A stretch of DNA of 64,000 bases from an uncultured Flavobacterium sp. (GCA_964409345.1 CAYPCZ010000001.1:92346-156345), one strand, 5' to 3'; positions 14,343 to 53,989 are shown, counted from the first letter of the stretch. The notes: generated by a model from the sequence alone, not told the origin. A program made the numbers and translations.

Positions 14343-17300
14343 ATGAGTTTTTGTCACTTACACTGTCATTCCCAAGGTTCATTTGCTGTAAAAAACGATG
14401 GATGTGCCAAACCTGAAGATATGCTTAGTAGGGTAAGTGAGCTTAAGATGCCAGGTATAGCAATTACTGATCACGGATCAATGATTGAGATTATTTCTTC
14501 TTTAAATCTTGCACAAGAATATGAAGTTAAAGTAATTCCAGGTATGGAAGCTTATATGGTCCATGATGTCAATAAGATGTCTGGAAATTCAAGTTATCAC
14601 ATAACACTTCTTGCTATAAGTGATATAGGTCTTTCTAACTTATATAAACTTCATCATGAATCTTATAAATATTTTTACTATAAACCAAACATAGATTTTA
14701 ATTTACTTAATCAATATAATGAAGGTATTGTATGTCTTAGTGGGTGTCCGGCTGGTATGTTTTCTGAATATTTTAGATCAGGAAATATTCAAGAAGCAAT
14801 TAAGACTTTGACTAAGTTTAAAAATATATTTGGTGATAGGTTTTATGGAGAAATACAAAGAATTGGTATTCCAGAGTTAGATAGATTTGCTGATTCTTAT
14901 TACGATATTTTTATAGATCAAAACATAAAGCCAATAGCAACTAATGATGTTCATTTTGTACACAAAGAAGATAATACCTTGCATGATATAGCTATATGTA
15001 TTAATAAAGGTATGAAATTAGGAGACCCAAATCGAGCTTTAAAATCATGTCCAGAAACTTACTTAAAATCAATAGATGAAATAAAAGAAATATTCTCTGA
15101 CAAGATGGCTGCCGTTCACAATACAATGGAAGTATTTGAAAGATGTAATATAAGTCCATTGCGTAAACAGAATTTAATGCCCTCCTTCGTTGTTCCAGAT
15201 AATTTTGTTTCTAACAAACCAGACGACGAAAAGATATTTGATTATCTGGTTTACAAAACTAAACAAGGTCTTAAAGAACTTATTCCAAAAGAACAATTAA
15301 AAAAAGCAGTATCAAGATGTCAAGGTGAACTGTCTGTTATTAGAAGAATGGGCTTTTCATCTTACTTTTTAATTGTTGCAGATTTTATTGAATGGGCAAG
15401 AAGTAAAAATATACCAATTGGTCTTGGTAGGGGTTCAGCGGCTGGCTCTTTGGTTTGTTATTGTTTAAAAATTACAGCAGTTATTAATCCACTAGATCAT
15501 GGTCTTATATTTGAAAGATTTTTAAATGAAGGTCGTGTTGGTTCGCCGCCAGATATTGATATTGACGTATCTTATACAAACAGACAAGAAGTAATTAGTT
15601 ATGTAAGAGAAAAGTATGGTGAATCTCGAGTTGCTATAATAGGAACTATGGGTACATTTAAACCCAAGACATGTATTAGAGATGTTGCTAGAGTTTTAGG
15701 TTTGCCTGATTCTTTATCAGATCAAATCTCAAAGTGCATACCTGAACCAATTCAAGGTATTGATATGAACTTTCAGATGGCACTTAAGGAATCTGAAAAA
15801 TTTAAAAAGTTTTATGAACGTTCGCAAAATCCTCAAAATAAAGATGACGAAAAATTAACTAAACTTTTTAAATATGCCATGCAGCTTGAAGGAAATAAAA
15901 GACATATTTCAAAACATGCTGCTGGAGTTGTAATAGCTCCAGAAGGAAAAAGCGTCAGTGACTTTCTTCCAGTTATGATAGACTCAAAAGATAAATCAGT
16001 TTTTACTGCTGTAGATATGCATACCGTAGAAGATGCTGGTGCATTAAAAATGGACTTTTTAGGTCTTAAGACATTGGATAAAATTCACAATTGTATGTTA
16101 AGAACTGGTCACAAAGATGGTTATTACTATTTAGTTAAAAATTGTGATATTCATAATAAACAAGTTTATGACTCTGTATTCAGAGAACAAAATACAATAG
16201 GTATTTTTCAATTTGAAAAAGAAGGAATGCGGGGAGCATTAAAAGATTTTGGAGGTAATTGTTTTAATGATCTTGTTGTAGTAGTTTCAGCAATGAGACC
16301 AGGCCCAAAAGATGAAATACCAAAAATGGCAGATGTTAAGTGGGGAAGAAGAATTGCTGATTATGATCATCCAATGTTAGAGTCAATATTAGATGAGACT
16401 TATGGTGTCTGTATAGAAGAAAATTCACTTATTCAAATGTCAGATTTTTCTAATAAAAAAATCAAAGATATTGTTGTGGGAGATAAAATTATTTCTCATG
16501 ATGGTAGTTATAATTTAGTAAAAAGAAAAATAAATAATGGCAATAAGAAAATAATAAATTTAAAATTAAGAGATGGAAGAGAATTAAAATGTACTCCAGA
16601 CCACAAGATATTTACTCTTAATGGGTGGATTGAAGCACAAAATTGTAAGAATGAATTTATAGGAAGAAATATAAATTATAGAAATACTGGCAATAAATTA
16701 AGTATTCAAGAAGCAAGATTAATCGGTTATCTTACTGGAGATGGTTGTATTTCTGGTAAAAAAGATATTTCTTTTTATTCAACCTGTAAAGCAGTTATTG
16801 AAGATTTTCAAGATATGGTTGAGCAATTTGGTTCGAGATATACTGTTTATGAACGAGAAAGATCAATACAGATACAGGTGTATGCTGAACCAAATAATAA
16901 ATATAAATCTACCTCAACCGTACTTAAGCTTATGAGAGATTGTGAATTACAGAAATGTAATTCACATACAAAATTTGTTCCTACTATTATTCAAAATGCT
17001 GATCGAGATAGCGTTTTTCAGTATCTAGCATCATATTTTGATTGTGATGGTCATGTAAGTGAAAGTTGTGCTTTTATTAAAACGGTATCACTATTATTAG
17101 CAGAGCAAGTATCTGAATTGTTATTTTCTGTAGGAATTCCATGTTCTGTATATAGTACTTTTTATAAAGAATGTAAAGCATATCAAATAACTATTTATGA
17201 TGGTAATAAATTTGAATATATTAGAAAATATATGAAAAGAGATGTTCCATTATTAGTTGGAACTCCAGGTGGTGATGGTTATTTTCCAGTTTCTATAATT

Positions 17301-18827
17301 AAAAATATTTGTAAAAATAATAACATTTCTCAAAGAAAATTAACTTCACAATATGGAATTGAAAGATCATTATTAAATAGAACATATTATATTAAAAGAT
17401 ATGTTGCGAATAGATTATTAAAAGCTTTAAATATAACTGATTATGAAAATAAAATTTTTACATTAGTTGATGATATTTCTGAAGTCGGTACTGCAAATGT
17501 TTATGATTTAGAAATAGATAATGTTCACTCATTTATAGCTTCTGGAATTCCAGTACATAATTGTCTTTATCAGGAGCAAGCAATTAGAATATTTGTTGAA
17601 TTAGCCAACTTTTCTGCTGTTCAAGCTGATCTTGCTAGACGTGCTATAGGTAAAAAGAAACCAAAAGAAATGGAAGCATTAAGAAAAGACTTTTTTACTG
17701 GATGTTCTGATAATAAAATTGATAGACATATTGCACAAAAGATATTTGATAAAATTGAAAAGTTTGCATTTTATTCTTTTAATAAATCCCATGCCGGAGT
17801 TTATGCTGGAATAGCTTTTTTTACTGCGTATTGTAAAACATATCATCCTGCATACTATATGGCAGAGTGTTTTAACTTTGATAAATTTGATAAATTTAAG
17901 TTGTTTGTTGAAGATTGTAGAAGGATGGGTATTCCTGTTTTACCACCAGATATAAATTGTTCTAAAGAGCGTTTTAGTGTAGAAAAGTTTGATAAATCTT
18001 TACATGTTAAAAATCCATATTTTGATACTTTATATAAAGATATTGAGGATGGAACTGAATGTATTAGATTTGGATATGAGTATGTTAAAAATGTTTGTCA
18101 AGGTTTAGATTTACATTTAAGACACAAGTTACCATATACTACAATTATTGATTTTGTTCAGCGTAATGAAAAGTTAGATAAGTCATCTTTAGAGTGGTTA
18201 GCTAAAGTGGGTTTTTTTGATAGTCTTGGAATTTATAGAAATGATGTTTTATTTAATATTGATAAACTAATGTCTCTCCAGAAGACCAAGAGAAAAGATG
18301 TTAGACAAAGAGATATGATGGATTTTATGGATGAAGAAGAAAAAGAATCTATTATATCTTTAGAAAAAACAAATAAAGAAGATGATGATAAAATTAGATT
18401 AAGATGGGAAATTGAAGGTGGTGGCTATGGATTTACCAGTACTTTCCGAGATGCGTTTAAAGAATTTTTAAGTAGATCAAACGGTCTTTCTGTTAAAGAT
18501 ATTGTCAAAATGGAAAATTCATCATCAGTATCCTTTTTAGGAATGATATACAACTTAAAGCCATATAGAAAACCAGTATTTAATAAAGAAACAAATGAAA
18601 AATCAAACAAACTAATGTTCTTTTTTGGTATAGGAGATTTTGATGAACAAATTGATATTGGTTTGTTTGAAGATAGTATTACTAAGAGTTCTAAGATAAT
18701 GAATATTTCTATTTCTGACAATATGTTTGAAAAAGAAGATATTGTATTAGTAACAGGTAAAGTCGTAAATTATAGATTTATTACAGATAGTATAGAAGTA
18801 TTAGAACGAGTAAATAAGAAAAATTAA
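14343..18827 (+). CDS. dnaE: DNA polymerase III alpha subunit (DnaE) interrupted by an intein
   Basis: N-terminal PHP domain HLHCHSQGSF...ITDHG; GLGRGSAAGSLV; PDIDIDV; KMDFLGLKTL; conserved TYGV / LYQEQ motif split by an insert. Confidence 0.9.
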   Translation: MSFCHLHCHSQGSFAVKNDGCAKPEDMLSRVSELKMPGIAITDHGSMIEIISSLNLAQEYEVKVIPGMEAYMVHDVNKMSGNSSYHITLLAISDIGLSNLYKLHHESYKYFYYKPNIDFNLLNQYNEGIVCLSGCPAGMFSEYFRSGNIQEAIKTLTKFKNIFGDRFYGEIQRIGIPELDRFADSYYDIFIDQNIKPIATNDVHFVHKEDNTLHDIAICINKGMKLGDPNRALKSCPETYLKSIDEIKEIFSDKMAAVHNTMEVFERCNISPLRKQNLMPSFVVPDNFVSNKPDDEKIFDYLVYKTKQGLKELIPKEQLKKAVSRCQGELSVIRRMGFSSYFLIVADFIEWARSKNIPIGLGRGSAAGSLVCYCLKITAVINPLDHGLIFERFLNEGRVGSPPDIDIDVSYTNRQEVISYVREKYGESRVAIIGTMGTFKPKTCIRDVARVLGLPDSLSDQISKCIPEPIQGIDMNFQMALKESEKFKKFYERSQNPQNKDDEKLTKLFKYAMQLEGNKRHISKHAAGVVIAPEGKSVSDFLPVMIDSKDKSVFTAVDMHTVEDAGALKMDFLGLKTLDKIHNCMLRTGHKDGYYYLVKNCDIHNKQVYDSVFREQNTIGIFQFEKEGMRGALKDFGGNCFNDLVVVVSAMRPGPKDEIPKMADVKWGRRIADYDHPMLESILDETYGVCIEENSLIQMSDFSNKKIKDIVVGDKIISHDGSYNLVKRKINNGNKKIINLKLRDGRELKCTPDHKIFTLNGWIEAQNCKNEFIGRNINYRNTGNKLSIQEARLIGYLTGDGCISGKKDISFYSTCKAVIEDFQDMVEQFGSRYTVYERERSIQIQVYAEPNNKYKSTSTVLKLMRDCELQKCNSHTKFVPTIIQNADRDSVFQYLASYFDCDGHVSESCAFIKTVSLLLAEQVSELLFSVGIPCSVYSTFYKECKAYQITIYDGNKFEYIRKYMKRDVPLLVGTPGGDGYFPVSIIKNICKNNNISQRKLTSQYGIERSLLNRTYYIKRYVANRLLKALNITDYENKIFTLVDDISEVGTANVYDLEIDNVHSFIASGIPVHNCLYQEQAIRIFVELANFSAVQADLARRAIGKKKPKEMEALRKDFFTGCSDNKIDRHIAQKIFDKIEKFAFYSFNKSHAGVYAGIAFFTAYCKTYHPAYYMAECFNFDKFDKFKLFVEDCRRMGIPVLPPDINCSKERFSVEKFDKSLHVKNPYFDTLYKDIEDGTECIRFGYEYVKNVCQGLDLHLRHKLPYTTIIDFVQRNEKLDKSSLEWLAKVGFFDSLGIYRNDVLFNIDKLMSLQKTKRKDVRQRDMMDFMDEEEKESIISLEKTNKEDDDKIRLRWEIEGGGYGFTSTFRDAFKEFLSRSNGLSVKDIVKMENSSSVSFLGMIYNLKPYRKPVFNKETNEKSNKLMFFFGIGDFDEQIDIGLFEDSITKSSKIMNISISDNMFEKEDIVLVTGKVVNYRFITDSIEVLERVNKKN
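16410..17561 (+). mobile_element. DnaE intein with LAGLIDADG homing endonuclease domain (384 aa)
   Basis: Starts with Cys right after ...ETYGV and ends ...GIPVHN followed by +1 Cys (CLYQEQ). Two LAGLIDADG-like blocks (LIGYLTGDGC, YLASYFDCDGH). Excision restores the DnaE TYGV-(C)LYQEQ motif. Confidence 0.85.
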
Positions 18828-44689: not shown

Positions 44690-45043
44690 TTATTTAACAT
44701 TATTTAAATCTTCTGCTATACCGCCATATAAATCTTCACTAAAGAGCATTCCTTCTTCTTTTGAAGAATCTCCAAATATAATTTGATTAGCTTTTTTTGC
44801 TATTTGATAGCCTTTTTTACGATTAACAAAGTTATCATCACTTGTGATAAAACCTTGAATTATACTATCTTTTTTATATGAAGAAATATCTCCATTATGT
44901 AAAATATAAGCTATAGCAAAGCAGTTATGATGTCTGCGTCCACATATAACTAAACCATTTTTTATATTTTTAGGTTGATGAGAATATTCTTTATTATTTT
45001 TAAGATGAATAGCAGCACAAAGAATATATGGAGTTTTATTCAT
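44690..45043 (-). CDS. hypothetical protein
   Basis: 117-aa ORF; AGGAAA upstream. Confidence 0.5.
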   Translation of the reverse strand: MNKTPYILCAAIHLKNNKEYSHQPKNIKNGLVICGRRHHNCFAIAYILHNGDISSYKKDSIIQGFITSDDNFVNRKKGYQIAKKANQIIFGDSSKEEGMLFSEDLYGGIAEDLNNVK

Positions 45044-45060
45044 TATTTATTTCCTTAAAA

Positions 45061-45099
45061 TAAAAAATGCCAGTCACGGAAAGATCATTTCCCACTGGC
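45061..45099 (-). terminator. rho-independent terminator closing the ncRNA locus
   Basis: Minus strand reads GCCAGTGGGAAATGATCTTTCCGTGACTGGC followed by ATTTTTTATTTT. Confidence 0.65.
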
Positions 45100-45458
45100 T
45101 CTTAATCCTCAGATTAAGTAAATAAATTTTGGAGAATCAGGTTAGTGATACCTGATTCTCCAAGGAAGAAACTGTTTGCTTTGACGAGCTTGGGCACTAC
45201 CCCAAGCCGGCTCGCCGCACATGAATCTTCCAAACATTTTGAGCAGGGCTGGATTATATTTTACCAGCTTACAGCGATTTAACTGTTTCCCTCTACTGGC
45301 CATTTCGCCAACGGATGATCAACTCCGCAGCACGCACCAATATTGTAAACAGCCGTGTCCTTGGTTTACATAACCTTTGTCTCGAGCCGCCAGTTATATA
45401 GCTGTCGTAACCATTGAATAACAGATGTGTCTTAACCACATCGCCTGCTCAAACTAAT
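45100..45458 (-). ncRNA. unassigned structured RNA immediately 3' of tmRNA
   Basis: ORF-free on both strands and GC well above the window background. Long-range helix 45443-45453 / 45238-45249 encloses several local hairpins. A perfect 12-bp hairpin lies at 45131-45161. Confidence 0.35.
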
Positions 45459-45860
45459 TGGTGGAGGCGGCGGGAGTCGAACCCGCGTCCAAAACGGTGT
45501 ATCTAATATTTTCGTTACAAGTTTTTTCTATTTTTGTGATTCGTGCTATTCTTACCAAAATAGACAAAATCTAAAAAGCACTAGACTCATTTATTTTTCG
45601 TTCTAGCAGTCAGCCGTTTATAACCTGTTAGACTTATTCTGTAGTTTATTATACTTTGATATTACCACAGACATCTTGTATCAAAGCAGTCATTGCTTCT
45701 TAGGCAGCGACGAGTTCACTACGAACTGCTGGAGCAGTTGCAGGGAACATATCAATTACGTTGGCAATTGAGAGTTTGCATACAACTTTAACGAGCATAG
45801 CATACTTTCTCGACTTGCAAATATTAAATCTCACTATCCTGTCGAAACCCTTACGCCCCC
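45459..45860 (-). ncRNA. ssrA: tmRNA (SsrA), one-piece, CCA encoded
   Basis: 5' GGGGGCGTAAGGGTTTCGACAGGAT and 3' GGACGCGGGTTCGACTCCCGCCGCCTCCACCA. Acceptor stem has G3:U70. Internal tag frame is GCC...GCT GCC TAA. Confidence 0.9.
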
Positions 45861-46151: not shown

Positions 46152-46568
46152 CTAATTAACTATTTGACCAGCTACAACTCCAACTGTGCCAATTCTAAAT
46201 ACTCTTACACCTGGTTCAGGGTCTGTGTCTAAATCATATACAAAATAACTATGCGCTGTTTTGCCATTTGCATCAACAGTTGAATGAACTTCGTTTATAG
46301 GATAAGTCATTTGGTTTCTAGCTAATGATTGATTGACTATACTTTCTAATCCAGTAGCATTAGAAGCTGTATCAGGAACAGAGAATGGTTCAGATGCTGG
46401 AATAGGATTTGGTGATCCTTGCTGTGTCTGAATTCTACTATGACTGCGAGTTAAAAAAGATATATTTGTATTATGTGTTACTGCTCCTTGAGCAGTTGTA
46501 TGACTGACTGTATTATATTGACAGCCTGATAGTGCAACACAGATATAACAAAAAAGAATTTTATTCAT
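46152..46568 (-). CDS. lipoprotein
   Basis: Start trimmed to MNKILFCYICVALSGC (lipobox LSGC) with GGAG RBS 8 nt upstream. Confidence 0.6.
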   Translation of the reverse strand: MNKILFCYICVALSGCQYNTVSHTTAQGAVTHNTNISFLTRSHSRIQTQQGSPNPIPASEPFSVPDTASNATGLESIVNQSLARNQMTYPINEVHSTVDANGKTAHSYFVYDLDTDPEPGVRVFRIGTVGVVAGQIVN

Positions 46569-46599
46569 ATAAATACTCCAAGGTTGCATTTATTTTAAA

Positions 46600-50857: not shown

Positions 50858-53800
50858 TTATAAATCATAACCTACAGCTATGATTTTATCTTCATCTTCG
50901 TTATTGTTTGATGAAGAATCTTCATCGACATTTAAAAAGTTACCATATCTTTTCATAATGTCGTCATATTCAATCATCTTACCTTCAGAATTAAGAACAA
51001 ATTCATAGTCCCAAAAATCTTTATGAATATCACCTTGTTGAGGATTATGTTCTTCTCCATCATAAATACGGAGTCTGTCAGTTGAGTGATCTAAAAGTAC
51101 TTCATCACATGCATCAAAAAAGTCAATATATTTTACCGTAGTCTTAACTTTTTTATATGGACATGATATAGCAACTGAATTATTTACACCAATAATCCAG
51201 GCACAAAGTCTTAAAAGCTTTGTAGCTTTTTGTGTCATTGTTTTTACATATTTTACTTCATCCTTTGTTGGTTTGATTTTTTTGTAATAGACTTTACTAT
51301 CTCTTAGAATTATTTTTTGTTTTCCAAGTTTAGCAAATCTACCAATCTTGTCATTTTCTAATGCGACATGAACATCAGAATAAAGCTTTTTAATAATCGG
51401 TTGTAGTTTATCAATTTGCTCTATACCTGTTTCACCAGTTAAAAGATTATCTGAAAATGCAGAATTGTACATACGTTGTACTTCTTTTGCATTTGCATCT
51501 TCAATCATTCGCCTTCCAACAATATCATATTCTGTTGAAGACCAATGTTTAATATTTCCTAATACTTCGTTTATTTCAATCATTGCATAGTAGGCAGCTA
51601 ATTTGGAATCATATTTAGAAAGATCTTTTCCTAATTCCACACACTTGTATGGGTTTTCAGCATTACCTAAGAGTTGACAATTTTTAATTGCATCAAGAAA
51701 TACACATCTATCTCCTAATCTCAATGCCCTACCTAGTCGTTGTATCATTTTGGTATCTGATTTACCGCCTGCACCCATTATAACAACGTTTACGGAGGGT
51801 AAATCAATTCCTTCATCATACAGAGATGTTGCAATGATGACTTTTGTTTTTTGATTTCTAAAACCTTCCATTATACTTCTTCTGGTGGCAGCATCGAATG
51901 TTCCATTTACTAAAACAATTTCTTGTGGTTTTGTATCTCCGCCTAAAAGTTTCCAAAGAAAGAATCCATGAATTTTTTCTTTAATAATAATTAATACAGT
52001 CTCATTTTGAGAAAGTGCTTTTAATGTAGCAGCTACAATGATTGCATTTCTATGATCATTAAAGATAATTCCTACTTTAGACCTTCTATGGTAGTTGTTC
52101 TTTTCATCTAGTGCTTTATCGTAGAATCTTTCATCTAGCTGTGTATCTACAGGATACATGATAATATCTGGCTTTGACAGCCAGCCTCTTTCAACAAGTT
52201 CTTTTGAGCTTATTTTATTGATAACTGGACCAGTTGTTGCTTCTAGTAAGATACCCAATCCATCCGCTCTCCAAGGGGTCGCAGTTAATCCCATTCTAAA
52301 TGGAGCTGGACATGACTGAGCAACATAAAACCAACTTTCAGAACCACTATGGTGAGTTTCATCAAAGATTGCAGTTTTTCTTGATTCTAAAACAAGTTTA
52401 TATTCAGGCTTAACTTCAAAGTCTTTTCTTTTACCATGATAAGCTAGTGACTGTATCATAGCTACAATAATAAACTTAAAACTTCCATCTTCATTTTTGT
52501 ATGTTTCTTCTCCGCCGCCTAAAACACCAACCATATCTGGACCAAAAATTTCAGAGAATACCCTTTCAGTTTGAACCATAAGATCTCTGGTGTGTACAAA
52601 AAAGATTGCTGGTTGATTTATTTTTGCAATACTATCAGCAGCTAAGATTGTATTGTGACAAATAAACCCATTACCAAAGAATGATTTAGATTCAGGAATT
52701 TCCCAGTCTACAATTTCTGCGGCAGATGCTTCTATCATACTAATTTTATCAAAGTAATAATTTTGTCCAGTACTTTGACAAGATATATTTTCTCCATCTA
52801 GTAATTTTTGGAATAATATAAAAGATGTATCTGAAACAGTAAGATAATTATTGTTTCGTTTAGACAATATACCAAAATTGAGAAGTGCAATTTGCACAAT
52901 TCTTGCTATTTCATTATTGTAAAAGATTTTTAAATTGTTATTTTGATTATCTTCATCTGTTTTAATAAACATACCACGCAAAAAAGCTGCTACAATATTT
53001 TTTGGTGCTGTACGAATTATTCTTGGGAATATGTCTTCACCACAGTTAAAAACTTTTCTATAAATTGTATTTAAAATAGCATCTTCGCTATAAATAGCAT
53101 CTTCGCTATCAGTAATTTTCTCTAAAAAGTCATAAAATATTTTTTCCCAGGATTTTTTTCTTTTAATATTTCCAATATCATTTGTTAAAAATCCAAAAAA
53201 GGTTGCCATATCTTCTGTGATTTCTTCTGGAAAAACTTTAAAATCTTTATTTAATTCATCTAGTAATTCAAGTGGCAGATATGTGGTTTTACCAAAGACA
53301 GATTGACTATGCTGAATAGCTACAATTGTTTTTAAAGTAATGTCTTCTAATTTAATCCAGTCAATTGAACCGTCTTTTTTAAGTTCTAATATCATCTGAT
53401 CTTCAGAACCACCAAGTTCATATCCATTTTTGGTTTTGATATTAATGATGGTATGAGTACCATCATTATAAAAAGATCGAGTAGTTTCAAAGTTTCCGTT
53501 TCTATTTATTAACATAACAGAGCATGGCTCAGCCTGATCAATTTTACCATGATCATATTCTGACATATACTCCATACCCTTGATGGTAAAGTTTACTGTA
53601 TTTTTCTTAACACATTTACCACCGCCAGTACCTAGCTGTATAATACCTGCATTCTTGATACCGTAGTTATTTTGACCTTCTAAAAAAGCATCTGAAGCAG
53701 CTTCTTGATAGTCTCGTAAATGAATTGAAGTTGGAATAGGATTATTGTGGGCTGGATAATCAATATTATCTACTTCTTCAAATGGAATCATTCCATCATT

Positions 53801-53989
53801 GAGGCATTTCTTTGCAATATGCAATACACCCCTTGGAAATCGCATCTTTTCTTTGTCTACAAGGGACTTATTTATTGTTGTTCCAGTTCTTGGATCAATA
53901 TATTGATATGAAAGGTTATTATGAAGGATATGAGGCACTTGGTAGGTATCTTCGATGTATACCCATGCATTTTCAATTCTTAGTATCAT
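50858..53989 (-). CDS. superfamily 2 DEXH helicase (UvsW/RAD25/type III Res-like) interrupted by an intein
   Basis: LRDYQ, GTGGGK|...|T split Walker A, DETHH, GLTATPWR, ATSLYDEGIDLPSVN, QRLGRALR. Confidence 0.8.
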   Translation of the reverse strand: MILRIENAWVYIEDTYQVPHILHNNLSYQYIDPRTGTTINKSLVDKEKMRFPRGVLHIAKKCLNDGMIPFEEVDNIDYPAHNNPIPTSIHLRDYQEAASDAFLEGQNNYGIKNAGIIQLGTGGGKCVKKNTVNFTIKGMEYMSEYDHGKIDQAEPCSVMLINRNGNFETTRSFYNDGTHTIINIKTKNGYELGGSEDQMILELKKDGSIDWIKLEDITLKTIVAIQHSQSVFGKTTYLPLELLDELNKDFKVFPEEITEDMATFFGFLTNDIGNIKRKKSWEKIFYDFLEKITDSEDAIYSEDAILNTIYRKVFNCGEDIFPRIIRTAPKNIVAAFLRGMFIKTDEDNQNNNLKIFYNNEIARIVQIALLNFGILSKRNNNYLTVSDTSFILFQKLLDGENISCQSTGQNYYFDKISMIEASAAEIVDWEIPESKSFFGNGFICHNTILAADSIAKINQPAIFFVHTRDLMVQTERVFSEIFGPDMVGVLGGGEETYKNEDGSFKFIIVAMIQSLAYHGKRKDFEVKPEYKLVLESRKTAIFDETHHSGSESWFYVAQSCPAPFRMGLTATPWRADGLGILLEATTGPVINKISSKELVERGWLSKPDIIMYPVDTQLDERFYDKALDEKNNYHRRSKVGIIFNDHRNAIIVAATLKALSQNETVLIIIKEKIHGFFLWKLLGGDTKPQEIVLVNGTFDAATRRSIMEGFRNQKTKVIIATSLYDEGIDLPSVNVVIMGAGGKSDTKMIQRLGRALRLGDRCVFLDAIKNCQLLGNAENPYKCVELGKDLSKYDSKLAAYYAMIEINEVLGNIKHWSSTEYDIVGRRMIEDANAKEVQRMYNSAFSDNLLTGETGIEQIDKLQPIIKKLYSDVHVALENDKIGRFAKLGKQKIILRDSKVYYKKIKPTKDEVKYVKTMTQKATKLLRLCAWIIGVNNSVAISCPYKKVKTTVKYIDFFDACDEVLLDHSTDRLRIYDGEEHNPQQGDIHKDFWDYEFVLNSEGKMIEYDDIMKRYGNFLNVDEDSSSNNNEDEDKIIAVGYDL
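52652..53614 (-). mobile_element. intein (321 aa) inserted in the helicase P-loop, with degenerate LAGLIDADG-like blocks
   Basis: Begins with Cys right after GTGGGK and ends GFICHN followed by +1 Thr, restoring GTGGGKT. Internal FFGFLTNDIG and AAFLRGMFIKTDED blocks. Confidence 0.8.

What the first reader, a model, noticed from the sequence alone, without database searches (positions are those of the whole stretch)
45459..45860. Complete phage-encoded tmRNA with an unusually long tag (ANVIDMFPATAPAVRSELVAA)
The minus strand shows all the hallmarks of a one-piece tmRNA:
- Acceptor stem GGGGGCG/CGCCTCC, including the alanine-identity G3:U70 pair.
- 5' GGGTTTCGACAGG D-like region.
- T arm GCGGG-TTCGACT-CCCGC.
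- An encoded CCA.

A reading frame starts at GCC (tmRNA nt 96; window 45765) and runs 21 codons to TAA (45700). It encodes ANVIDMFPATAPAVRSELVAA and ends in the hydrophobic xVAA typical of protease-targeting tags.

tmRNA genes are reported in only a minority of large phages. No smpB is visible in this window.

The tag is about twice the length of common bacterial tags, so it may be tuned to the host proteases or may have a phage-specific function.
Basis: partly seen in the sequence, partly recalled or inferred. Interest (0 to 1): 0.65.

Follow-up and report, generated by a model that had tools for sequence, protein, structure and literature searches.

The report
Phage tmRNA gene with long tag
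A large soil phage carries a complete, evolutionarily maintained copy of the bacterial ribosome-rescue RNA (tmRNA) whose degradation tag is probably 21 residues, about twice the usual length; this is a new example of a known phenomenon, not a new kind of system.

Summary

**Context.** The surroundings are phage: 29% GC, DnaB, primase, DnaE, RNR, ligase, clamp loaders, sigma factor, endolysin, a T4 Y16D-like gene and three tRNAs. The contig is about 159 kb and comes from a soil metagenome.

**Relatives.**
- A syntenic orthologue in a related phage contig (L003) keeps the fold through 16 two-sided base-pair changes; slid controls give 1-2. The gene is therefore under selection, not a relic.
- A third, partial relative lies in a wastewater RNA-seq run.

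**Tag.** ARAGORN calls an 11-aa tag (APAVRSELVAA).
- the Rfam alignment of the resume context;
- a 12-nt spacing from PK1, as in three bacterial tmRNAs;
- an "AN" start;
- an orthologous ANNVIDMFPVAAPAVRSERIAA in the same frame.

All candidate starts share one frame and one ...[LVI]AA end. Conservation of the disputed first ten codons can also be explained by two conserved hairpins, so the N-terminal boundary is inferred (about 80:20).

**smpB and novelty.** No smpB lies in the window; the rest of the contig could not be read. Phage tmRNAs and tags of this length are already known. This is a new member of a known kind, of modest interest.

The parts
45459..45860 (-). One-piece tmRNA (ssrA) gene, 402 nt, CCA encoded
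   Evidence: ARAGORN. Rfam RF00023, 145.9 bits, full length.
45854..45860 (-). Acceptor stem, 5' strand (nt 1-7, GGGGGCG), with G3 of the G3:U alanine-identity pair
   Evidence: Sequence. The pair C6-G becomes U6-A in the orthologue.
45813..45841 (-). Helix 2, 5' strand (nt 20-48). It pairs with nt 339-371 (window 45490-45522).
   Evidence: Five two-sided compensatory changes against L003.
45778..45812 (-). Pseudoknot 1 (nt 49-83): CGAG/CUCG and GUAUGC/GUAUGC
   Evidence: Rfam alignment. Identical in L003.
45753..45770 (-). Hairpin 1 of the mRNA-like region (nt 91-108), enclosing the -5 to -1 context and the resume codon. Comparable to 'helix m' of E. coli tmRNA.
   Evidence: Fold z-score -5.7, together with hairpin 2. 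7 of 7 pairs kept in L003, and the AAC insertion lies in its loop. Helix m is described in PMC1168896.
45700..45765 (-). Most likely tag reading frame: GCC (nt 96) through UAA (nt 159-161), encoding ANVIDMFPATAPAVRSELVAA
   Evidence: The Rfam consensus uUGCaAAC aligns on AAUU-GCC-AAC at high posterior probability. 12 nt after PK1. The orthologous frame reads ANNVIDMFPVAAPAVRSERIAA. The X4 relative ends ...APVATRERLAA in the same frame.
45700..45735 (-). Rival shorter tag frame called by ARAGORN (GCU at nt 126 through UAA; APAVRSELVAA). Same frame as the long reading.
   Evidence: ARAGORN. Its upstream context also meets the A-4 / R-3 / Y-1 rule.
45714..45748 (-). Hairpin 2 (nt 113-147), inside the tag frame
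   Evidence: MFE and centroid structures agree. 14 of 14 pairs kept in L003, and all three stem substitutions preserve pairing.
45689..45711 (-). Helix 5 (nt 150-172), with the UAA stop (45700-45702) in its loop
   Evidence: Rfam alignment. Two two-sided compensatory changes against L003.
45639..45686 (-). Pseudoknot 2 (nt 175-182/200-207 and 191-196/217-222)
   Evidence: Six two-sided compensatory changes against L003.
45584..45632 (-). Pseudoknot 3 region (nt 229-277); weakly defined in the window copy
   Evidence: Low-confidence Rfam alignment. Read by eye from the printed sequences: stem a has 5-7 pairs and stem b only GACU/AGUC in the window; it is clearer in L003 (UAAGAAUG/CAUUCUUA and CUGACU/AGUCAG). 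The MAFFT columns are unreliable here.
45527..45581 (-). Pseudoknot 4 (nt 280-334). Stem b is UCUAUUUU/AAAAUAGA.
   Evidence: A-U becomes G-C in L003.
45459..45486 (-). T arm (GCGGG UUCGACU CCCGC), acceptor 3' strand CGCCUCC, and ACCA
   Evidence: Sequence. Rfam posterior probability at maximum.
45424..45442 (-). Small hairpin about 17 nt after the CCA. A hairpin of different sequence sits at the same place in L003.
   Evidence: The z-scores are weak (-1.3 and -2.0).
45129..45163 (-). Strong terminator-like hairpin (14-bp stem and U-rich tail) ending the ORF-free 3' trailer
   Evidence: I5. The sub-threshold Rfam hit to cow-rumen-4 (25.7 bits, below the 48.5 cut-off) is not accepted.
46152..46589 (-). 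Upstream neighbour gene (lipobox-like N-terminus LSGC). Its 63%-identical homologue is linked to the orthologous tmRNA in L003.
44690..45043 (-). Downstream neighbour gene, T4 Y16D-like (PF26092, phrog_839)

Best explanation
This is a functional, standard one-piece tmRNA (SsrA) gene carried by a large (about 159 kb), AT-rich soil phage that shows no integrase in the genes scanned.

**Inferred mechanism, from the well-established tmRNA pathway.**
- The RNA is cut out of a longer transcript, by RNase P at the 5' end and by nucleases at the 3' end, leaving the encoded CCA.
- The host alanyl-tRNA synthetase charges it with alanine through the G3:U pair.
- It binds SmpB. This is probably the host's SmpB, since none is encoded in the 64-kb window.
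- It enters ribosomes stalled on broken or stop-less mRNAs, which should be frequent during infection.
- Translation resumes most probably at GCC (nt 96, window 45765). This adds ANVIDMFPATAPAVRSELVAA, which ends at UAA in the loop of helix 5.
- The ...LVAA-COOH end marks the product for host AAA+ proteases, and the ribosome is freed for phage protein synthesis.

**What is shown.** The gene, its complete fold, its phage context, selection on the fold, the conserved frame and the conserved ...[LVI]AA end.

**What is inferred.** Charging, the SmpB partner, the exact resume codon, proteolysis and the benefit to the phage.
For: **Gene and fold.**
- Two independent detectors agree on the ends.
- All tRNA-like-domain hallmarks are present.
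- PK1, helix 5 with the stop codon in its loop, PK2 and PK4 can all be drawn.

**Selection.**
- On 87 drawn pairs, comparison with the syntenic orthologue L003 (66% identity in the five-sequence MAFFT alignment; 82% mean column identity in the pairwise alignment) gives 98.3% of cells paired.
- 16 pairs changed on both sides, against 1-2 when the partners are slid by 1-3 columns (details).

**Phage context.**
- DnaB, primase, DnaE, RNR, ligase and SF2 helicase.
- Sigma factor, two clamp-loader subunits and an endolysin.
- A T4 Y16D-like neighbour.
- 29% GC.
- No integrase among the mid-size ORFs scanned.
- An independent assembly from another run shows the same link between the upstream gene and the tmRNA.

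**Resume codon at nt 96.**
- Rfam aligns AAUU|GCC AAC on the consensus uU|GCa AAC at top posterior probability, in both the window and L003.
- The spacer after PK1 is 12 nt, the same as in three bacterial tmRNAs whose tags start at nt 94-95.
- A at -4, a purine at -3 and a pyrimidine at -1 are present (the rule is from PMC2481249).
- The tag starts with AN.
- The orthologous tag ANNVIDMFPVAAPAVRSERIAA differs by an in-frame AAC insertion and has 4 synonymous codon changes.
- A third relative ends ...APVATRERLAA in the same frame, with no gaps.

**Expression hint.** The third relative comes from a run labelled RNA-seq.
Against: - ARAGORN places the resume codon at nt 126. Its upstream context meets the same A-4 / R-3 / Y-1 rule in both orthologues, so the rule does not discriminate.
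- Conservation of the first ten codons is confounded with RNA structure. They lie almost entirely in two conserved hairpins, the single substitution falls in the unpaired linker, and the 3-nt insertion falls in a hairpin loop.
- Only two full-length sequences and one fragment of this lineage are known.
- PK3 is weak in the window copy.
- There is no direct evidence of transcription of this copy, of charging or of tagging.
- The host is unknown.
- The other ~95 kb of the contig could not be searched for smpB.
- The orthologue L003 has a non-canonical T loop (GGCAGAU) and is missed by ARAGORN. At least that copy may therefore work differently, be damaged or be mis-assembled.
Confidence: 0.72

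Rival explanations
1. Same functional phage tmRNA, but translation resumes at GCU (nt 126, window 45735), as ARAGORN calls it. This gives an ordinary 11-aa tag, APAVRSELVAA. The 30 nt before it would be an untranslated, structured spacer.
For: - ARAGORN's call.
- The context CAACU|GCU in the window and UAGCU|GCU in L003 meets A-4 / R-3 / Y-1, and in L003 also U-5.
- Conservation of nt 96-125 can be explained by hairpins 1 and 2 alone.
- An 11-aa tag is the typical length.
Against: - It would put the resume codon 42 nt after PK1. The spacing is 12 nt in the three bacterial controls.
- Rfam aligns the consensus resume context to nt 96 with maximal posterior probability in both orthologues.
- A canonical GCC AAC ('AN') sits exactly at the canonical position and is in frame with the rest.
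- ARAGORN's heuristics fail on this lineage anyway: it misses L003 altogether.
Confidence: 0.17
2. The tmRNA is a non-functional passenger: a host ssrA copy picked up by imprecise excision or recombination and now decaying, or kept only as an attachment-site sequence.
For: - ssrA is a common prophage integration site, and fragments of it occur in phages (discussed in PMC9004378).
- The 3' 35 nt also match a stretch of an Alcaligenes phage with no annotation.
- The relative L003 has an aberrant T loop.
Against: - The gene is full-length, not a 3' fragment.
- 16 two-sided compensatory changes maintain every helix across two diverged phages.
- The frame and the ...AA end are kept in three relatives.
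- No integrase was found among the ORFs scanned.
- No flanking direct repeats.
- No cellular or metagenomic tmRNA with this PK1 / resume region or this tag start was found. The three bacterial tmRNAs that share its 5' 23-mer are only about 50% identical overall. This is not a recent capture.
Confidence: 0.06
3. The tmRNA is cellular and its linkage to phage genes is an assembly artefact. The assembly graph breaks inside the 3' tRNA-like domain, whose k-mers are shared with many soil bacteria.
For: Logan contigs of the source run end or start at 45461-45487, where summed k-mer depth jumps to about 1700.
Against: - Both flanking Logan contigs have the same depth (13.8 and 12.9). Both are AT-rich and phage-like: the 8.9-kb piece carries the T4 Y16D-like gene, the endolysin and a clamp loader.
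- 5' linkage to the phage gene is reproduced in an independent run (L003).
- L003 has a hairpin at the same place after the CCA.
- The tmRNA body itself is 40% GC, against 57-60% for the bacterial tmRNAs that share its 5' end.
Confidence: 0.03

Closest known systems
Bacterial one-piece tmRNA (SsrA, 10Sa RNA; Rfam RF00023)
   Same: - Full architecture: tRNA-like domain with G3:U, T arm and CCA; long helix 2; PK1; mRNA-like region with an Ala resume codon about 12 nt after PK1; stop codon in the helix 5 loop; PK2 to PK4.
- The tag starts AN and ends in a hydrophobic residue followed by Ala-Ala.
   Different: - Encoded by a phage, with no adjacent smpB. All three bacterial control loci have smpB next to ssrA.
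- About 40% GC.
- The tag is probably 21 aa rather than about 10.
- The mRNA-like region folds into two stable conserved hairpins.
- Beyond the tRNA-like domain, identity to the three bacterial tmRNAs that share its 5' 23-mer is only about 50%.
Previously reported phage-encoded tmRNAs
   Same: - Members reported so far: Bxz1-like (cluster C1) mycobacteriophages; Bacillus phage G (tag AKLNITNNELQVA); huge phages of Al-Shayeb et al. 2020; about 2.3% of sequenced phage genomes (PMC4131195, PMC12484599, PMC7162821, PMC9004378).
- Like those, this is a complete ssrA gene in a large phage genome that also carries tRNA genes and its own replication machinery.
- The presumed role is to keep translation running during infection.
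   Different: - No detectable sequence relative in GenBank phages or IMG/VR.
- The tag sequence is unique to this small lineage.
- Some huge phages also encode SmpB (PMC7162821); none is seen in this window.
Two-piece (permuted) phage tmRNAs of marine Melnitz-like and pelagimyophages (PMC9004378)
   Same: Phage-borne ssrA, thought to sustain the hijacked translation machinery or to recycle amino acids.
   Different: - Those are circularly permuted, and some carry a glutamine riboswitch.
- This one is one-piece. The RF04321 hits are sub-threshold overlaps only, and no riboswitch was found in the flanks.
Long-tag cellular and plastid tmRNAs
   Same: - The mRNA-like domain reaches 126 nt in the Odontella plastid (PMC1168896).
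- From my own memory and not tested here: Mycoplasma and Chlamydia tags exceed 20 aa, and cyanobacterial tags begin ANNIV..F.
- The tag here is well above 10 residues, with the canonical start context and A-A end kept.
- A possible resemblance of AN(N)VIDMF to the cyanobacterial ANNIV.F start.
   Different: - No sequence homology was shown.
- The resemblance to cyanobacterial tags is recalled, not tested.

Membership tests
tmRNA (SsrA), one-piece; Rfam RF00023 | Match to the family covariance model above the curated threshold, full length | tested here: met
   145.9 bits against a gathering score of 47, E 2.9e-57, model positions 1-374 of 374. ARAGORN gives the same ends.
tmRNA (SsrA), one-piece; Rfam RF00023 | tRNA-like domain: 7-bp acceptor stem with the G3:U70 alanine identity pair, canonical T arm and loop, discriminator A, 3' CCA, no anticodon arm | tested here: met
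   GGGGGCG / CGCCUCC with G3:U; GCGGG-UUCGACU-CCCGC; ACCA. The acceptor and T stems covary with L003.
tmRNA (SsrA), one-piece; Rfam RF00023 | PK1 directly upstream of the mRNA-like region | tested here: met
   CGAG/CUCG plus GUAUGC/GUAUGC at nt 49-83. Identical in L003, so there is no covariation to count.
tmRNA (SsrA), one-piece; Rfam RF00023 | Resume codon (usually Ala) with a conserved upstream context (A at -4), followed by a short frame that ends in a stop codon in the helix 5 loop and encodes a tag with a hydrophobic, Ala-rich C-terminus | tested here: met
   - CAAUU|GCC at nt 96.
- UAA lies in the helix 5 loop.
- The tag ends LVAA; the ends are RIAA and RLAA in the relatives.
- Which in-frame codon is the true start (nt 96 or nt 126) is inferred, not proven.
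tmRNA (SsrA), one-piece; Rfam RF00023 | Pseudoknots PK2-PK4 closing the ring back to helix 2 | tested here: met
   PK2 has 6 two-sided compensatory changes and PK4 stem b has 1. PK3 can be drawn but is weak in the window copy and poorly aligned.
tmRNA (SsrA), one-piece; Rfam RF00023 | Works with SmpB | not testable with these tools
   No smpB in the 64-kb window, with a working positive control. The rest of the contig and the host genome were unavailable. Binding to host SmpB is inferred.
tmRNA (SsrA), one-piece; Rfam RF00023 | Expressed as a stable RNA, alanylated, and tags stalled nascent chains | not testable with these tools
   The only hint is a 151-nt contig of a close relative (94% identity over 96 nt) in a run labelled RNA-seq.
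Phage-encoded tmRNA (descriptive class) | The gene lies within a bona fide phage genome rather than a prophage-host junction or a bacterial chromosome | tested here: met
   - Phage replication, sigma, lysis and T4-like genes lie on both sides.
- No integrase among the ORFs scanned.
- No ribosomal or other cellular housekeeping genes were met among the roughly 40 larger ORFs scanned against PHROGs or Pfam.
- The upstream linkage is reproduced in an independent contig.
- Capsid and terminase genes are not in this window and could not be looked for elsewhere on the contig.

The most novel reading that the evidence does not exclude
This phage-only tmRNA lineage may have evolved a bipartite tag.
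- The conserved N-terminal module, AN(N)VIDMFP, would be a docking site for a specific adaptor or protease of the host or the phage. It would be analogous to the SspB-binding part of the E. coli tag.
- That would send rescued polypeptides to a fate chosen by the phage, with the ...[LVI]AA end kept for ClpX-type recognition.
- The two stable hairpins in the mRNA-like region, one of which buries the resume codon, would gate when the template becomes readable.
- A corollary is that ARAGORN-based surveys may under-call tag length in phage tmRNAs.
Probability: 0.12. Interest if true: 0.55.

Novelty: new member of a known kind. Interest (0 to 1): 0.3.

Why it matters
- It adds a well-supported tmRNA lineage that so far seems phage-specific, found in soil and wastewater. 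The lineage is under clear purifying selection, which strengthens the view that some large phages invest in ribosome rescue.
- It is a concrete case where the standard annotation tool mis-sets the tag: ARAGORN truncates it here and misses the orthologue entirely.
- It offers a compact test object, a 402-nt RNA, for two questions: how resume-codon choice works when several in-frame sites fit the known upstream rule, and whether long phage tags change the fate of tagged proteins.
- It does not change what is known about trans-translation.

Tried and rejected
**Searches for relatives that found nothing or little.**
- GenBank phages: blastn of the locus matched only 35 nt of the 3' tRNA-like domain in an Alcaligenes phage. 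Megablast of 12 kb found nothing.
- IMG/VR: two tag patterns, the 5' 23-mer, the DnaE protein and an alignment of the upstream-neighbour protein gave no relatives.
- JGI metagenome contigs: a PK1-to-resume pattern and a tag pattern gave 0 hits each.
- The downstream neighbour (T4 Y16D-like) belongs to a broad family with no close orthologue, so it was useless for synteny.
- L001 and L002, the other homologues of the upstream gene, carry no tmRNA. L001 has a tRNA-Trp further downstream, after two small genes.

**Host inference.**
- The exact 5' 23-mer occurs in three bacterial MAGs, one labelled Atribacterota.
- Their tmRNAs are about 50% identical overall, have 9-aa tags, and the loci are 48-52% GC. 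This is shared tRNA-like-domain sequence, not a host signal.

**The upstream-context rule.** The A-4 / R-3 / Y-1 rule (PMC2481249) was tried as a discriminator between resume codons. It is met at nt 96, 108, 126 and 138, all in one frame, so it rejects only the GCA-82 alternative.

**Reaching the rest of the 159-kb contig.**
- Three exact-protein look-ups failed.
- The fourth returned only an 8.9-kb Logan contig.
- The genome search and the fetch from genomes were shut.

**Reading the X4 contig in full.**
- Exact-likeness laying returned nothing.
- A shorter reference gave no loose ends. It showed only that 2 of the 6 differences lie upstream of the tag, so 4 lie within the first 35 nt of the tag.
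- L003 could not be sent to the run tools.

**Other.**
- A literature search for tag strings was swamped by unrelated words.
- No riboswitch or other Rfam family reached its threshold in the flanks.
- No sigma-70-like promoter was found on the minus strand upstream of the gene.
- No direct repeats flank the gene.

Full report
**1. Is the feature there?**

Yes.
- ARAGORN finds a tmRNA at window 45459-45860 on the minus strand.
- Rfam's tmRNA model RF00023 matches the same 402 bases end to end: 145.9 bits against a gathering score of 47, E 2.9e-57, model 1-374 of 374.
  - acceptor stem GGGGGCG / CGCCUCC with G3:U;
  - GGGUUUCGACAGG;
  - T arm GCGGG-UUCGACU-CCCGC;
  - discriminator A and an encoded CCA.
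- The frame from GCC (nt 96, window 45765) to UAA (45702-45700) is open and reads ANVIDMFPATAPAVRSELVAA.

**2. Is it phage-encoded?**

The window is 24-36% GC (mostly about 29%) and has two divergent gene arms.
- PHROG and Pfam matches give DnaB helicase, primase, a DnaE-type polymerase, exonuclease, both RNR subunits, an ATP-dependent ligase and an SF2 helicase.
- They also give a sigma factor, two clamp-loader subunits, a PG_binding_1 + CHAP endolysin and a T4 Y16D-like protein directly downstream of the tmRNA.
- The many remaining ORFs have no family.
- Three tRNA genes are present.
- No integrase was seen among the ORFs scanned.
- The protein database records the source contig as 159,158 bp. 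The sequence occurs in soil metagenome runs.

The de Bruijn contigs of the source run break inside the 3' tRNA-like domain, where k-mers are shared with many soil bacteria. An assembly chimera is still unlikely:
- the two flanking pieces have equal depth (13.8 and 12.9) and are both phage-like;
- the link between the upstream gene and the tmRNA is reproduced in an independent run (below).

**3. Relatives.**

The lineage is rare.
- GenBank phages, IMG/VR and the JGI metagenome contigs gave nothing.
- The upstream neighbour protein (window 46152-46589) has only two homologues among 5.8 billion clusters.
- One of them (63% identity) lies on a 1,113-nt contig, L003. It is followed 70 nt later by a full tmRNA (Rfam 121.4 bits). 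ARAGORN misses this tmRNA, probably because its T loop reads GGCAGAU.
- A third, partial relative is a 151-nt contig in a wastewater run labelled RNA-seq (X4). It is 94% identical to window 45731-45826, which spans PK1 through the first tag codons.

**4. Is the RNA under selection?**

I drew 87 base pairs on the window-L003 alignment. They cover H1, H2, PK1, the two hairpins of the mRNA-like region, H5, PK2, PK4 stem b and the T stem.
- 98.3% of cells are standard pairs.
- 16 pairs changed on both sides while staying paired, against 1-2 when the 3' partners are slid by 1 to 3 columns.
- The two-sided changes fall in H1 (1), H2 (5), H5 (2), PK2 (6), PK4 (1) and the T stem (1).
- PK1 is identical in both.
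- PK3 can be drawn in both but is weak in the window copy and badly aligned.

I chose the helices on the window sequence, so the percentage paired is biased upward. The compensatory changes in L003 are not affected by that choice. This rules out a decaying passenger copy.

**5. Which tag?**

ARAGORN starts the tag at nt 126 (APAVRSELVAA).

Evidence for nt 96:
- The consensus context 'uU GCa AAC' aligns on 'UU GCC AAC' at maximal posterior probability in both orthologues.
- GCC follows PK1 by 12 nt. The spacing is the same in three bacterial tmRNAs that share the 5' 23-mer, whose tags start at nt 94-95. Position 126 would be 42 nt away.
- The tag would start AN, as most do.
- L003 reads ANNVIDMFPVAAPAVRSERIAA in the same frame. 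It has an in-frame AAC insertion and four synonymous codon changes.
- The X4 contig continues without gaps into ...APVATRERLAA followed by UA. The other two frames give nothing tag-like.

It lies inside the PK1 stem, has G at -4 and U at -3, and ends PT / TT.

Caveats:
- The published frame-setting rule is A at -4 nearly invariant, a purine at -3 and a pyrimidine at -1 (PMC2481249). It is also met at nt 108, 126 and 138, all in the same frame, so it does not decide between starts.
- The first ten codons lie almost wholly within two hairpins that are themselves conserved: nt 91-108 and nt 113-147, with fold z-scores of -5.7 and -4.2.
- The single substitution in that stretch falls in the unpaired linker, and the 3-nt insertion falls in a hairpin loop.
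- In hairpin 2, all three stem substitutions keep pairing, although two of them change the amino acid.
- Conservation of nt 96-125 therefore cannot by itself prove translation.

I put the 21-aa reading at about 80% and ARAGORN's at about 17%. Whichever start is used, the frame, the stop in the H5 loop and the ...[LVI]AA end are the same.

**6. SmpB.**

- It finds nothing in the window at E <= 10.
- An HMM built from four SmpBs gives a best E of 2 over 443 six-frame segments of the window.
- The remaining ~95 kb of the contig could not be reached, and the genome tools were shut.

Use of the host's SmpB is therefore inferred.

**7. Flanks.**

The gene sits in 1.1 kb without ORFs.
- No sigma-70-like promoter was found on its strand. 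It may be co-transcribed with the upstream gene and then processed.
- A small hairpin follows the CCA in both the window and L003.
- A strong terminator-like hairpin lies at 45163-45129.
- No Rfam family reaches its threshold in the flanks. In particular there is no glutamine riboswitch of the kind attached to some marine phage tmRNAs (PMC9004378).
- No direct repeats flank the gene.

**8. Comparison with what is known.**

Phage tmRNAs are established:
- eight Bxz1-like mycobacteriophages and Bacillus phage G (PMC4131195);
- phage G's tag is AKLNITNNELQVA (PMC12484599);
- tmRNAs and SmpB occur in huge phages (PMC7162821);
- 402 of 18,146 phage genomes (2.3%) carry a tmRNA (PMC9004378).

Known mRNA-like domains span 48-126 nt, and a predicted hairpin over the resume codon ('helix m') is described for E. 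coli (PMC1168896). A 21-aa tag and a structured template are therefore within known variation.

I did not test it.

**9. Verdict.**

This is a genuine, selected, phage-borne one-piece tmRNA with a probable 21-residue tag. It is a new member of a known kind and of modest interest. Its main practical points are that ARAGORN mis-sets the tag here, and that the exact resume codon needs an experiment.

Noticed in passing
L003:1045-1063: The orthologous tmRNA in the related contig has a non-canonical T loop (GGCAGAU between GAGGGG and CCCCUC) instead of UUCGANY. ARAGORN does not detect the gene, although Rfam scores it at 121 bits. It may be a real variant, a damaged copy or an assembly error.
   Followed up: partly
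window 45714-45770: The mRNA-like region folds into two very stable hairpins (about -23 kcal/mol; z-scores -5.7 and -4.2), both conserved in the orthologue. One buries the resume codon and its -5 to -1 context. The other lies inside the tag frame, where pair-preserving substitutions change amino acids (A to V, T to A).
   Followed up: yes
window 45044-45458: A 415-nt ORF-free trailer follows the tmRNA and ends in a strong terminator-like hairpin (45163-45129). An 18-nt stretch at 45230-45247 is 83% complementary to the tmRNA 3' end and the start of the trailer (45444-45461). This could form a long-range processing stem in a precursor.
   Followed up: partly
window 45461-45487: The source run's de Bruijn contigs break inside the tmRNA 3' tRNA-like domain, because that ~35-nt stretch is shared with many soil bacteria (summed depth about 1700 against 13). 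This is a general hazard for assembling phage tmRNA loci from metagenomes.
   Followed up: yes
L001:539-1607: In another relative, the homologue of the upstream gene (54% identity) is followed by two small genes and a tRNA-Trp gene, with no tmRNA. The RNA gene downstream of this gene is therefore variable in the lineage.
   Followed up: partly
window 46152-46589: The upstream neighbour protein starts with a signal peptide plus lipobox-like LSGC / LCAC / LVGC motif, conserved in its only two database homologues. It is probably a phage lipoprotein of a very rare family.
   Followed up: no
window 14343-18827 and 50858-53989: The DnaE-type polymerase (1494 aa) and the SF2 helicase (1043 aa) are much longer than their PHROG matches cover, which fits the inteins proposed in earlier notes of this scan. 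I did not verify this.
   Followed up: no
L004:3615-4405, L005:2786-3583, L006:3780-4581: Three bacterial MAGs (one labelled Atribacterota) share the exact 23-nt 5' end of this tmRNA. They have smpB directly beside ssrA and 9-aa tags (ANADLALAA, AEPELALAA). They served as positive controls and are not host candidates.
   Followed up: yes
window 45731-45826 (run X4): A wastewater run labelled RNA-seq holds a 151-nt contig 94% identical to the PK1-to-tag part of this tmRNA, with a diverged but in-frame tag end (...APVATRERLAA). The lineage therefore also occurs outside soil and may be transcribed.
   Followed up: partly
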